Positions 21,970 through 37,119 of a stretch of 64,000 nt of DNA are shown one piece after another. A program made the translations under genes and the position numbers. The stretch's first letter is position 1; every line of letters begins with the position of its first letter. This DNA comes from Octopus vulgaris (Eukaryota): NCBI GenBank assembly GCA_951406725.2, contig OX597819.1, positions 30,628,001-30,692,000 on the forward strand, given 5' to 3'. The notes beneath the pieces were generated by a model. It had not been told where the DNA came from. It saw only the letters and a list, made by a program, of their open reading frames with translations, and searched no databases.

Positions 21970-23694
<1,725 letters not shown>

Positions 23695-23887: not shown

Positions 23888-24007
23888 ATGCTTACATCAC
23901 CTCGGTTTGACAAGCGATCACCTGTCGAAGTCCTAACTAGATTCGATATTGCTTAACTTCAGTGGTCAGACGAGAACCGGTGCATTCAGCGTGATATGGC
24001 AGTAAGA
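23888..24007 (-). pseudogene. 5S rRNA pseudogene (full length, diverged)
   Basis: Minus strand CTTACTGCCATATCACGCTGAATGCACCGGTTCTCGTCTGACCACTGAAGTTAAGCAA...GTTAGGACTT...GGTGATCGC...GGTGATGTAAGC aligns to metazoan 5S; T5 run just downstream (23878-23882). Confidence 0.88.
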
Positions 24008-24520: not shown

Positions 24521-24960
24521 TTATTTATTTGTGTTTGGTCTGTGGTATTTGTCTGCACACTGATAAAGTGGAGAGACTATGAATTTGGGAAATTTGGTTG
24601 TGGTGCATATGTCCAAATGTTCTCTGTGTAAAATTTGTCTATTCCAGGAATCTCGTATTTGCTGTCGATAAATCGTTAATCTGATTCTTAAGGTGAGTTT
24701 CCTTTTCCCAATATAATCTTCGCTGCATTCGTTGTAGTTAATAGACATATCAATTTTTTTCACTGTAATTGTGAAATTCATATGATGAAATTTATATGAT
24801 TTGTCCTTAGTAAGATTTGTACAAATTCTGCAATTAGAGCGATCACACTTCCTAACTGTTAGAGCTGATAGTTTTGTATGTGCGAGTGCGTTTATAATAT
24901 ATAGTTTCGGTTTGATTTTTACCTCAGGCAAGTTCATTTACCATTTCCTTTTATATCAAG
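24521..24960 (-). mobile_element. Decayed Penelope-like element C-terminus (GIY-YIG)
   Basis: KCDRSNCRIC...C.EDYIGK.KLTLRIRL..YRQQI....R...EHLDIC; a CTGATGA core remnant lies downstream at about 24414-24420 (-). Confidence 0.75.
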
Positions 24961-26687: not shown

Positions 26688-26844
26688 ACAGATAAAAAGA
26701 AAGCCAGGTTTAATAATAGTCACAATCTACTAATGATGACGGTTTGCAGTTGATCTTCACCAGCGGAAGTTGCCTTTAGAATATCAGATTAATACTCAAC
26801 TTGTCTAATATCTACATGCCATAACAGTCGTCCTCTTCATCGGC

Positions 26845-26935
26845 ATCAGCATCATCATCATCATCATCATTATCATCATCATCAACATCATCATCATTAT
26901 CATCAACATCAACATCAACATCATCATCATCATCG

Positions 26936-26967
<32 letters not shown>

Positions 26968-27080
26968 GTCGTCGTCGTCGTTGTCGTCGTCGTCGTCGTC
27001 ATCATCCACATCATCAATATCATCATCATCATCAACAATACTACCAGCACCTCAACCACAACCACAACCACCACCATCTC
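26845..27080. repeat. (CAT/CGT/CAA)n microsatellite
   Basis: Direct inspection. Confidence 0.95.
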
Positions 27081-27469
27081 TACATGCGTCATGATCAGGA
27101 AGCTTCTAAACGGTCTCTCAACCGACAAGAAATCCCAGCCAATACTTATTCAATATATTCCGCACACACCTCACACCCCACCCCACCCCACCACACCCCA
27201 CCCCACCATCGCCTTAAATATAAAATATATATCATTACTACTACCACACTACTGCAGCTACTGTTGCTGTTGGTACTTTTTCTCTTGTTTTATTTCTTTT
27301 TCGTATATTTTTCTTTTCTCCTTTTATCGCCATTACCACCACCACCATAATACCATCACCATCACCACTACCATCACCATCACCACTACCATCACCACCA
27401 TCACAATTGCCGACTTCACTACCATCACCCGCTGCCATCACCACAATCATCACTACCGTTTCCGCAACC

Positions 27470-29405
27470 ACCACCATCGCCACCATCACCAGTATCATCC
27501 CCCACCATCGCCACCATCACCAGTATCATCCCCACCATCGCCACCATCACCAGTATCATCCCCCACCATCGCCACCATCACCAGTATCATCCCCACCATC
27601 GCCACCATCACCAGTATCATCCCCACCATCGCCACCATCACCAGTATCATCCCCACCATCGCCACCATCACCAGTATCATCCCACACCATCACCAGTATT
27701 ATCACCACCATCGCCACCATCACCAGTATCATCCCCACCCTCACCAGTATCATCCCCACCATCGCCACCATCACCAGTATCATCCCACTATCGCCCTCAT
27801 CACCAGTATCATCCCCCATCATCGCCACCATCACCAGTATCATCCCCACCATCGCCACCATCACCAGTATCATCACCACCATCGCCACCATCACCAGTAT
27901 CATCCCTACCATCGCCACCATCACCAGTATCATCGCCACCATCGCCACCATCACCAGTATCATCCCCACCATCGCCCTGATTACCAGTATCATCCCCCAC
28001 CATCGCCACCATCACCAGTATCAACCCCACCATCACCACCATCACCAGTATCATCCCACCATCGCCCTCATCACCAGTATCATCCCCCACCATCGTCACC
28101 ATCACCAGTATCATCCCCACCATCGCCACCATCACCAGTATCATCCCCACCATCACCAGTATCATCCCCACCATCGCCACCATCACCAGTATCATCCCCC
28201 ACCATCGCCACCATCACCAGTATCATCCTTACCATCGCCACCATCACCAGTATCATCCCCACCATCGCCACCATCACCAGTATCATCCCCACCATCGCCA
28301 CCATCACCAGTATCATCCCCACCATCGCCACCATCACCAGTATCATCCCCACCATCGCCCTCATCACCAGTATCATCCCCCACCATCGCCACCATCACCA
28401 GTATCATCACCACCATCGCCACCATCACCAGTATCATCCCCACCATCGCCCTCATCACCAGTATCATCCCCCACCATCGCCACCATCACCAGTATCATCA
28501 CCACCATCGCCACCATCACCAGTATCATCCCCACCATCGCCACCATCACCAGTATCATCACCACCATCGCCACCATCACCAGTATCATCCCCACCATCGC
28601 CCTCATCACCAGTATCATCCCCCACCATCGCCACCATCACCAGTATCAACCCCACCATCGCCACCATCACCAGTATCATCCCCACCATCGCCACCATCAC
28701 CAGTATCATCATCACCATCGCCACCATCACCAGTATCATCCCCACCATCGCCACCATCGCTAGTATCATCCCCACCATCGCCACCATCACCAGTATCATC
28801 CCCACCATCGCCACCATCACCAGTATCATCCCCACCATCGCCCTCATCACCAGTATCATCCCCCACCATCGCCACCATCACCAGTATCATCACCACCATC
28901 GCCACCATCACCAGTATCAACCCCACCATCGCCACCATCACCAGTCTCATCCCCACCATCGCCCTCATCACCAGTATCATCCTCCACCATCGCCCTCATC
29001 ACCAGTATCATCCCCCACCATCGCCACCATCACCAGTATCATCCCCACCATCACCCTCATCACCAGTATCATCCCCCACCATCGCCACCATCACCAGTAT
29101 CATCACCACCATCGCCACCATCACCAGTATCATCCTTACCATCGCCACCATCACCAGTATCATCACCACCATCGCCACCATCACCAGTATCATCCCCACC
29201 ATCGCCACCATCACCAGTATCATCACCACCATCGCCACCATCACCAGTATCATCCCCACCATCGCCCTCATCACCAGTATCATCACCACCATCCCCACCA
29301 TCACCAGTATCATCCCCACCATCGCCCTCATCACCAGTATCATCCCCCACCATCGCCACCATCACCAGTATCATCCCCACCATCACCAGTATCATCCCCA
29401 CCATC
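27470..29405. repeat. 30-bp minisatellite CCCCACCATCGCCACCATCACCAGTATCAT, roughly 60 copies
   Basis: Direct inspection; frequent 31-nt and occasional shorter variants; flanked by (CAC/CAT)n. Confidence 0.97.
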
Positions 29406-30169
29406 TCAACCATCACCACCGTCACCACTACCATCTGCACCACCACCACCACCACCACCACCATCACTACCATCACTCCCACCGCTACCATCTCCAACTC
29501 CACTACTACGACCTCCACCACCGGCACCACCACCACCACCACCACCACTACCAGTACGTCCGTCGTTATCATCATCGTCGTCGTCATCGTCATCATCATC
29601 ATCAACATCATCATTTCCATCATCATCGTCATCATCACTACTATTTTCTTCCGTCTTTTTTCCTTCCTTCCTCACTTCTCTTCCTTGCCTTCATCTTCCT
29701 GTATTCTCCCTTCATCCTCTCATCCTCCCTCCCTCCGTCCCTATAACTACTTACCTTCCTACACATAACAAACACACACACACACACACACACTCACACA
29801 CACACACACACACACTCGCCACCCACTCATCCTCTGTTACACTACGCTATTCATAAACTCACCCCTCACACAGCCTTCCTCACTTCGCAGCGTACCTCCC
29901 TCATACTACATGTAACACCTTTCTCACAAACTTCACACTGTAATCGCCGCTCCCGCCAATCTCTTATCCCCACCTCAGCTACCTTTCTATATCTATGTCT
30001 GTCCTACTTAACTCTTAACAGAAAAACTCACCTAGTTTTGTCGCTGCTGTTATTTTTACATTTAATATGAAAAGTCTATCTTGCAACACATCCCACAACA
30101 TCCTTACAATAACATAATTACTCTATCTCTACATCTATCTATCTATCTTCCTCCCCCTGTCTGTCTCTC

Positions 30170-34149: not shown

Positions 34150-34184
34150 CTCTCTGACGAAGAATTCTATCCGAAACGTCAGAG
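34150..34184 (+). ncRNA. Minimal hammerhead ribozyme motif (canonical core, GUC site)
   Basis: ctct-CTGACGA-A-GAAT-tct-ATCC-GAAA-CG-TC-agag; one mismatch in stem II. Confidence 0.78.
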
Positions 34185-34719
34185 TTATCTTCTTTATCGC
34201 GGCAAAATGATATATTCCATTTGGACTTTTTACGTCAATCAAGTTGAATGACTTTTTTTCCTATATGCGGTCGAGGATACGAGATAGAAAAATCTGAGTC
34301 AACTCAGATATAAAAAAAACTGTAGTCCATCGTTGCTCTGAGTTAATATTTTTCATGATCTTGAAGAGAAACAACTCACTTCCTGCATTGAAGACATCTC
34401 TCTTAATTCACCTCTCTCTTAGTTCGCCGTACCTAGAGACTTCAATTTACACAACCCCTACTGGCTCTCGCAGGCCATCATCACTGGCGCTGCTGGAACA
34501 GAAACCAAATCATTTACCACCCACGATTCTCAGCACCAGTTCGTAAGTATCCACACCTGCCCGTATGCTTACACAAGTTAGTTTTCACACTGACCCGTAT
34601 GTCTGCATCAATTATAATCAACTCCTACCATATTCCTAATACACACAACATACTGAATAACCTTGATTTATTTCTCACCTCCAAACCTAACCTTTATTCA
34701 TGCATTACTGTCTCTCAGT

Positions 34720-36234: not shown

Positions 36235-36587
36235 GGTACTTAGTTGTGCCATTTATTTACTAATCTATATATATCTATATATATATATATATATAATAAT
36301 AATGATAATAATAATAAAGGGTAAAATTAATTAATCAATTAATTAATAATTTTACCAATTAGTTCGGTATGTTAAAAGAACCATTATCGGTAAACTTATA
36401 CAAAAATTCTATAATTATGAGCATAATTATAATTTAGGCTCAGCAAAATTTGCTTCACCACATACCGAAATTTAGAAATGCCAGTTAAAATACTATTCTA
36501 CTACCATAAGATATTTCCCAGACAGCAATTCTCTACAACTCACGCCGGTAAAGAGAAAAACATAACGAATCCACCCGGCTTTGATTA

Positions 36588-36671
36588 ACTGTATACGCGT
36601 TTCGGGGTTAAAGAGATGTAAAAAGATGTAAAATCATATTTCTACTCACTTATTCCCTTCCTCAGTACAGT
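36588..36671 (-). ncRNA. Type-I hammerhead ribozyme (canonical core), minus-strand twin
   Basis: Reverse complement of 36827..36910 with one loop substitution. Confidence 0.82.
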
Positions 36672-36826
36672 ATTTCAAATTTTTAATTTGAGAGCACTGG
36701 CAATTAACATACGTACTCGACCAAGCGCCATCAAATAGCATATATCCAAAAAAAAACAGCTATTCAATGGCGCTTGGTCGAGTACGTATGTTAATTGCCA
36801 GTGCTCTCAAATTAAAAATTTGAAAT

Positions 36827-36910
36827 ACTGTACTGAGGAAGGGAATAAGTGAGTAGAAATATGATTTTACATCTTTTTACATCTCTTTAGCCCCGAAACG
36901 CGTATACAGT
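36827..36910 (+). ncRNA. Type-I hammerhead ribozyme (canonical core, palindromic stem III, GUA site)
   Basis: actgta-CTGAGGA-A-GGG-(about 48-nt loop)-CCC-GAAA-CGCG-TA-tacagt; perfect 6-bp stem I. Confidence 0.85.
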
Positions 36911-37064
36911 TAATCAAAGCCGGGTGGATTCTCTTTATCTGCGTGAGTTGTATGGGAGATATCTTATGGTAGGAGAATAATATCTTAACTGCTATTTCTA
37001 AATTTCGGTATGCAGTGAAGCAAATTTTGATGAACTCCAATTATAATTATGCTCATAATTATAG

Positions 37065-37119
<55 letters not shown>

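What the first reader, a model, noticed from the sequence alone, without database searches (positions are those of the whole stretch)
36405..37068. 660-bp palindrome encoding two near-identical intact hammerheads on opposite strands
Seen: inverted repeat with a 19-nt spacer. The inner 165 bp are identical but for one base and each arm has a complete core (actgta-CTGAGGA-A-GGG...CCC-GAAA-CGCG-TA-tacagt). The outer ~140-160 bp of the arms are clearly more diverged, with indels. Established: PLEs often carry inverted pLTR copies. Inference: a transcript from either strand would contain a ribozyme and its antisense, so folding could give either a long dsRNA hairpin (substrate for ADAR editing or Dicer) or self-cleavage. 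The abrupt step in identity suggests fold-back synthesis or gene conversion limited to the ribozyme-containing part.
Basis: partly seen in the sequence, partly recalled or inferred. Interest (0 to 1): 0.75.

Follow-up and report, generated by a model that had tools for sequence, protein, structure and literature searches.

The report
Head-to-head Penelope-type ribozyme repeat insertion
This mirror-image stretch is two head-to-head copies of a short ribozyme-shaped repeat that sits this way at many places in the genome; it was likely pasted in by Penelope-type retroelement enzymes and its inner halves likely re-copied from each other later, so it is probably an insertion scar, not an RNA switch.

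Summary
The palindrome is in the assembly as described; no sequencing run laid here covers its centre. Each arm is part of a dispersed, non-coding 572-nt tandem repeat with one type I hammerhead (1,276 candidate copies). Head-to-head pairs are common: 28 of 73 loci. In 19 of 20 classifiable pairs one arm ends short and the other carries a ~100-nt tail, in (TA)n at this locus and most others. A young autonomous Penelope-like element here follows the same rule at 10 of 10 loci. This is the known inverted-pLTR-plus-tail architecture, likely made by priming both cut DNA ends. The identity step is real (1/162 versus 16/140 differences) and recurs (3 of 21 inverted pairs), so later arm-to-arm copying is likely. 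In the clearest other case the tract runs ~110 nt past the ribozyme. An RNA switch is unlikely: the motif needs a same-sense partner, and the antisense arm is transcribed first on either strand. One independent run shows the outer right arm joined to a different repeat, which is unexplained. No autonomous partner was found. The scan noted such palindromes before in other genomes.

The parts
36266..36295 (.). (TA)n target remnant, left
   Evidence: sequence
36405..36569 (-). outer left arm (c171-335), 9 private changes against its subfamily majority
36570..36739 (-). inner left arm (c1-170)
36588..36671 (-). type I hammerhead motif, core intact; predicted cut between 36594 and 36593
   Evidence: cleavage untested
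36740..36758 (-). 19-nt spacer: continuation of the left copy into the unit's upstream part, with a lengthened T run
36759..36928 (+). inner right arm (c1-170); c9-170 differs from the left arm at 1 site and shares 3 rare changes with it
36827..36910 (+). type I hammerhead motif, core intact; predicted cut after 36904
   Evidence: cleavage untested
36929..37068 (+). outer right arm (c171-335), 10 private changes and two deletions; short 3' end without tail
   Evidence: 36907-37003 matched without difference by one contig of run X1
37069..37116 (.). (TA)n target remnant, right
   Evidence: sequence

Best explanation
The palindrome is two head-to-head copies of a 572-nt non-coding hammerhead-bearing repeat, likely inserted in one event by Penelope-like enzymes acting in trans, and its inner arms were likely made alike later by DNA-level copying from one arm to the other. 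Shown: the repeat family, its tandem unit, two preferred 3' ends, their one-long/one-short pairing, (TA)n targets and the identity step. Inferred: both ends of a cut (TA)n site primed reverse transcription at two start sites about 100 nt apart on the same RNA or on sibling RNAs, and the two 5'-truncated cDNAs were joined, here almost symmetrically. Inferred: the short-spacer palindrome later formed hairpins, and template switching or gene conversion overwrote c9-170. The hammerhead likely worked as a dimer in tandem source transcripts and is predicted to be trapped in double-stranded RNA at this locus.
For: Family: 1,276 candidates, 40 scored; unit 572 nt, 73 distinct loci mapped, 18 of them holding more than one unit. 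3' ends: 43 of 112 segments at c330-349 and 33 of 112 at c430-449. Head-to-head at 28 of 73 loci: 19 long/short, 1 short/short, 0 long/long, 8 with a non-standard end (p 2e-5 for 19 of 20). Young autonomous RT element (Pfam RVT_1): one end at 693 and one at 743 in 10 of 10 loci with both ends in view. Arms share subfamily alleles at 27 of 43 informative sites against 22% in shuffles, 0 of 5000 as high. Identical runs of 110 nt or more: 3 of 21 inverted pairs versus 2 of 557 unlinked pairs (p 0.007 without the window). Compensatory changes in stems I and II. Papers: inverted pLTR with one-sided tail (PMC3846280, PMC8557442); two RT start sites and extension of both strands (PMC11167929); homogenisation of inverted repeats (PMC8604942).
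Against: No autonomous partner with homology was found in three RT/GIY-YIG families examined, so mobilisation by a Penelope-like element rests on architecture. No run confirms the centre. One X1 contig joins the outer right arm at 36907 to another repeat rather than to the inner arm. 18 of 21 inverted pairs show no long identical tract, including near-symmetric L025 and L177. The inner tract carries fewer changes (3 of 162) than any of 17 subfamily copies (minimum 3.1%, mean 5.5%), which a single unbiased copying event does not predict. The end classes are broad: 4 of the 19 long ends stop at c398-416 and 2 short ends at c316 and c324. At L030 the shared changes could be inherited from the source.
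Confidence: 0.7

Rival explanations
1. The inner right arm is an assembly product (fold-back reads or mixed haplotypes) laid over a real but asymmetric inverted insertion.
For: No independent cover of the centre; X1 shows another junction at 36907, 22 nt from the end of the identical tract; the two similar cases come from the same assembly.
Against: The flanks differ. The outer right arm is confirmed by an independent contig. The spacer is family sequence. Two of the three inner differences are opposite-strand decays of one CpG. Near-symmetric junctions with diverged arms occur at other loci (L025, L177).
Confidence: 0.12
2. The right copy originally began at c149 beside a piece of another repeat (the X1 state), and a later fold-back replaced that centre with an inverted copy of the left arm.
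For: One event would explain both the step and the X1 junction; strongly asymmetric junctions are the commoner kind.
Against: The window junction offers about 1 nt of fold-back homology; no X1 contig matching the left arm's private changes is listed (about 80% of X1 was read); the X1 contig may come from another locus.
Confidence: 0.08
3. The step arose at insertion: the short-end cDNA began on one diverged source RNA and switched to the template of the other arm.
For: Several subfamilies exist; a recent insertion would leave the inner arms about 1% apart.
Against: No near-identical source for either arm: the nearest copies differ by 3.7-4.3% (inner) and 6.6-7.1% (outer) among those fetched.
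Confidence: 0.05
4. The inner hairpin is kept by selection as a regulatory RNA (ADAR or Dicer substrate, or a cleavage switch).
For: Low mutation load of the inner tract; both cores intact.
Against: 48 of 71 copies have an intact core, so intactness is ordinary; the antisense arm comes first on both strands and the hairpin wins by about 126 kcal/mol; similar tracts occur at other loci and extend beyond the motif.
Confidence: 0.05

Closest known systems
EN+ Penelope-like element insertions with inverted 5'-truncated pLTR and one-sided tail (PMC3846280, PMC8557442; passages read)
   Same: Head-to-head arrangement, partial tandems, 5' truncation, tail on one end only, (TA)n targets.
   Different: No ORF; tail about 100 nt rather than 30-40; arms overlap almost fully; partner not found.
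Two internal RT start sites of PAc/Poseidon (PMC11167929; abstract and results read, parts 1-2 of 4)
   Same: Two preferred 3' ends; both target strands extended in vitro; AT-rich targets.
   Different: Here both ends fall at T-rich/TATA sites that resemble the target, and the long and short ends are paired within single insertions.
Animal non-LTR retrozymes (PMC7229834, passages; bioRxiv 10.64898/2026.07.22.740005, part 1 of 5)
   Same: Non-coding tandem unit with one type I hammerhead; low GC; dimer-dependent helix III as in amphibians.
   Different: Unit 572 nt versus 170-400; fetched loci hold at most about 1.4 units in tandem; circular RNA and expression untested.
Metazoan PLE hammerheads (PMC4209133; parts 1-2 of 4 read)
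   Same: Type I, extra base after A9, palindromic helix III, compensatory changes, opposite-strand pairs 100-700 bp apart already reported.
   Different: Helix II is extended to about 54 nt; the 10.1-11.1 register is ambiguous.
Inverted-repeat arm homogenisation by template switching or conversion (PMC8604942 and PMC7999016, passages; PMC1803023, abstract and outline)
   Same: Short-spacer inverted repeats whose arms become identical.
   Different: Tracts of 115-260 nt in retroelement scars with an abrupt outer step.

Membership tests
Penelope-like element insertion | RT plus GIY-YIG ORF | tested here: not met
   No such ORF in the unit or at this locus; no homologous autonomous partner found.
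Penelope-like element insertion | partial tandems and inverted 5'-truncated copies | tested here: met
   18 of 73 loci hold more than one unit; 28 of 73 are head-to-head.
Penelope-like element insertion | tail at one end only | tested here: met
   19 of 20 classifiable pairs; tail longer than the published 30-40 bp.
Penelope-like element insertion | target-site duplication or AT-rich target | tested here: inconclusive
   (TA)n on both sides, so a duplication cannot be read.
Type I hammerhead ribozyme | core CUGANGA / GAAA / UH | tested here: met
   Both arms; 48 of 71 copies.
Type I hammerhead ribozyme | helices I and II supported by covariation | tested here: met
   93.5% of cells paired; both-side changes at c72-149, c84-134 and c89-129. 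These mark subfamilies, so they are few events, and the structure came from a fold of one member.
Type I hammerhead ribozyme | stable monomeric helix III | tested here: not met
   2 bp around a 2-nt loop; a 6-bp intermolecular helix forms in the predicted dimer.
Type I hammerhead ribozyme | self-cleavage | not testable with these tools
   Needs an assay; Rfam gives no hammerhead hit at E up to 10.
Non-LTR retrozyme | non-coding tandem unit with one type I hammerhead | tested here: met
   572-nt unit.
Non-LTR retrozyme | at least two consecutive hammerhead-bearing units; 170-400 nt unit | tested here: not met
   Longest tandem 821 nt among 73 fetched loci; longer arrays may exist unseen.
Non-LTR retrozyme | expression as linear and circular RNA | not tested
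   No RNA run was laid; both read-laying runs went to the palindrome's DNA.

The most novel reading that the evidence does not exclude
Head-to-head insertion scars repair themselves arm against arm and so keep their hammerheads younger than the rest of the family (3 of 162 changes versus a mean of 5.5%), acting as reservoirs of intact ribozymes. On this reading the X1 junction, 2 nt downstream of the predicted cut, is a fresh retrocopy of the self-cleaved RNA of this very arm.
Probability: 0.1. Interest if true: 0.65.

Novelty: new member of a known kind. Interest (0 to 1): 0.35.

Why it matters
The architecture is known. The added value is the paired count: one long and one short end in 19 of 20 pairs of a non-coding hammerhead repeat and in 10 of 10 loci of a young autonomous element in the same genome. 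This points to coordinated two-ended priming and ties a retrozyme-like unit to Penelope-type integration by its scars rather than by phylogeny. These dated palindromes also offer a natural series for measuring how often short-spacer inverted repeats are homogenised in an animal germline.

Tried and rejected
Rfam: only 5S rRNA at gathering score in the window, and only hairpin-shaped microRNA-type hits below threshold at the locus. Partner hunt: the old RT/GIY-YIG family beside L003, the young family and a third family share no sequence with the unit. A recalled Pfam accession was not in the library. Pfam on five ORF fragments gave no informative hit; PDB sequence search gave none. No RNA holder listed; this is no evidence on expression. 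Lack of cover at the centre proves nothing. I first read the shared changes at L030 as ribozyme-killing and withdrew this: two pairs of them are compensatory and helix III stays palindromic. I first read the X1 loose letters as a fold-back of the element; they resemble another old repeat, absent from the window at up to 3 mismatches and from the assembly exactly, with one 18-of-19 match that family resemblance or chance can give. 5' truncations are not enriched at the predicted cut: 0 of 112 start at c147-150. A MITE with long terminal inverted repeats is rejected: arms occur singly and in tandem, and centres vary. Literature searches listed no paper on this family or on homogenised Penelope palindromes; supplements were not opened and may list octopus elements or the partner.

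Full report
Observation. The inverted repeat is in the assembly as described. Coordinates 'c' count along the repeat unit: c1 is 36759 on + and 36739 on -. The arms differ at c7, c8 and c132, then at 16 of 140 aligned positions beyond c170, with deletions of 12 and 13 nt in the right arm; the step is significant (p 4.5e-5). The window lies in a 2.8-Gb animal genome; the label 'octopus-like' is recalled from SINE resemblance and appears in earlier scan notes, not in any call of mine.

The arm is a repeat. The right arm found 1,276 candidates, of which 40 were scored. Four DNA searches and a few fetched regions gave 73 distinct loci after duplicates were dropped; this is a sample of the best-scoring copies, not a census. 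The unit is 572 nt, runs head-to-tail into itself, and has one hammerhead at c69-152. Copies differ from the majority by 4-8% by region and fall into subfamilies. No ORF belongs to it.

Ends. Of 112 mapped segments, 43 end at c330-349 and 33 at c430-449, mostly running into (TA)n. 5' ends are scattered. 28 of 73 loci are head-to-head; with short defined as c310-350 and long as c395-456, 19 are long/short, 1 short/short, none long/long, and 8 have an end outside both classes. As a control I took head-to-head loci of a young autonomous element found (776-aa ORF, Pfam RVT_1; GIY-YIG and CxxC motifs recognised by eye, recalled), chosen by orientation only. In all 10 loci with both ends in view, one end lies at position 693 and the other at 743 of the reference; an eleventh had one end out of range. 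Published work describes inverted 5'-truncated copies with a tail on one end (PMC3846280 and PMC8557442, passages) and two internal RT start sites with extension of both target strands (PMC11167929). The two arms of a pair tend to share subfamily alleles (27 of 43 sites in 20 pairs; shuffles 22%), as expected from one RNA or from RNAs active at the same time. That young element shares no sequence with the unit, nor do two other families, so the partner is not identified.

Ribozyme. The core is complete in both arms, with cut triplet GUA. On 62 of 72 extracted motifs (copies with larger deletions left out) 93.5% of cells pair, with both-side changes in stems I and II; these are subfamily differences, hence few events. 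Helix III is a 6-nt palindrome that pairs between two molecules in the predicted dimer, as described for metazoan motifs that cleave weakly and as dimers (PMC4209133; PMC7229834 passages). The monomer fold is modest (z -1.96). 48 of 71 copies keep an intact core. In a transcript of the palindrome from either strand the antisense arm comes first; the hairpin is predicted at -484 and -497 kcal/mol, and forcing stem I alone raises the + strand to -359. Cleavage at this locus is therefore predicted to be blocked. Nothing here shows transcription.

The step. In c9-170 both arms share three rare changes (c39, c40, c56) and differ once; beyond c170 they carry 9 and 10 separate changes. Unlinked copies differ by 12% over c9-170, minimum 3.3% in 2,132 pairs. 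Two copies made together should drift apart evenly, so the inner tract was likely copied later. Identical runs of 110 nt or more occur in 3 of 21 inverted pairs (window 123, L030 114, L114 157) and 2 of 557 unlinked pairs (p 0.0004, or 0.007 without the window). At L114 the arms lie about 600 nt apart and the tract spans about 260 nt, well past the motif. At L030 the step also falls near c173, but its shared changes may be inherited. L025 and L177, equally symmetric, are not homogenised. Arm homogenisation by template switching or conversion is established for inverted repeats (PMC8604942 and PMC7999016 passages; PMC1803023 abstract). One point is unexplained: the inner tract has fewer changes (1.9%) than all 17 comparable copies, which would fit repeated repair toward the undamaged arm, selection, or chance.

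Reads. Only assembled contigs were available; two calls laid five runs in all. Run X1 holds a 116-nt contig that matches 36907-37003 without difference, across both private deletions, so the outer right arm exists independently. Its other 19 letters are not the inner arm but resemble an unrelated old repeat. This may be a rearranged allele, the ancestral state, or a daughter copy elsewhere; the junction lies 2 nt after the predicted cut. No run confirms the centre, so an artefact is not excluded.

Verdict. A real-looking but largely ordinary Penelope-type head-to-head insertion of a non-autonomous hammerhead repeat, with likely later homogenisation of its inner arms. It works like a Penelope-mobilised retrozyme; it fails the published size and multimer criteria for retrozymes among the loci fetched. 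Earlier scan notes reached the same two-ended reading in other genomes; I had reached it before looking them up, and they are not counted as support.

Noticed in passing
L101-L106, L218-L235 (e.g. G000:C26:33638800-33651000): Young, high-copy two-ORF RT element with a microsatellite-like 3' region, inserting in (TA)n; head-to-head copies have near-identical arms and a strict 50-nt one-sided tail; my pattern found no canonical hammerhead in it.
   Followed up: partly
L114:1445-2820 (G000:C4:171197440-171198820): Two inverted copies of the unit about 600 nt apart, near-identical over about 260 nt and then diverging.
   Followed up: partly
window 34150-34185 (+): Minimal hammerhead-like motif of another family.
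   Followed up: no
L134:1000-1430 (-): Another short tandem repeat ending in (TA)n with a hammerhead-like 3' half but an atypical 5' core, inserted in a GIY-YIG ORF.
   Followed up: no
window 23889-24007 (-): Degenerate 5S rRNA-like copy (Rfam 50.8 bits) downstream of a decayed GIY-YIG fragment at 24521-24937.
   Followed up: no
window 22365-23437 (-): Tc1-like transposase in two frames (recognised by eye).
   Followed up: no
window 26800-29900: About 3-kb C-rich degenerate tandem array with strong GC skew.
   Followed up: no
L205:1440-1590: Old repeat family (233 candidates, about 80% alike), some copies in close inverted pairs; resembles the loose letters of the X1 contig and the flank of L013.
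   Followed up: partly
family position c79-82 and c136: Core position 7 takes all four bases, and the c82/c136 bases opposite each other vary by subfamily (AC, CA, GC, AA, AT).
   Followed up: partly
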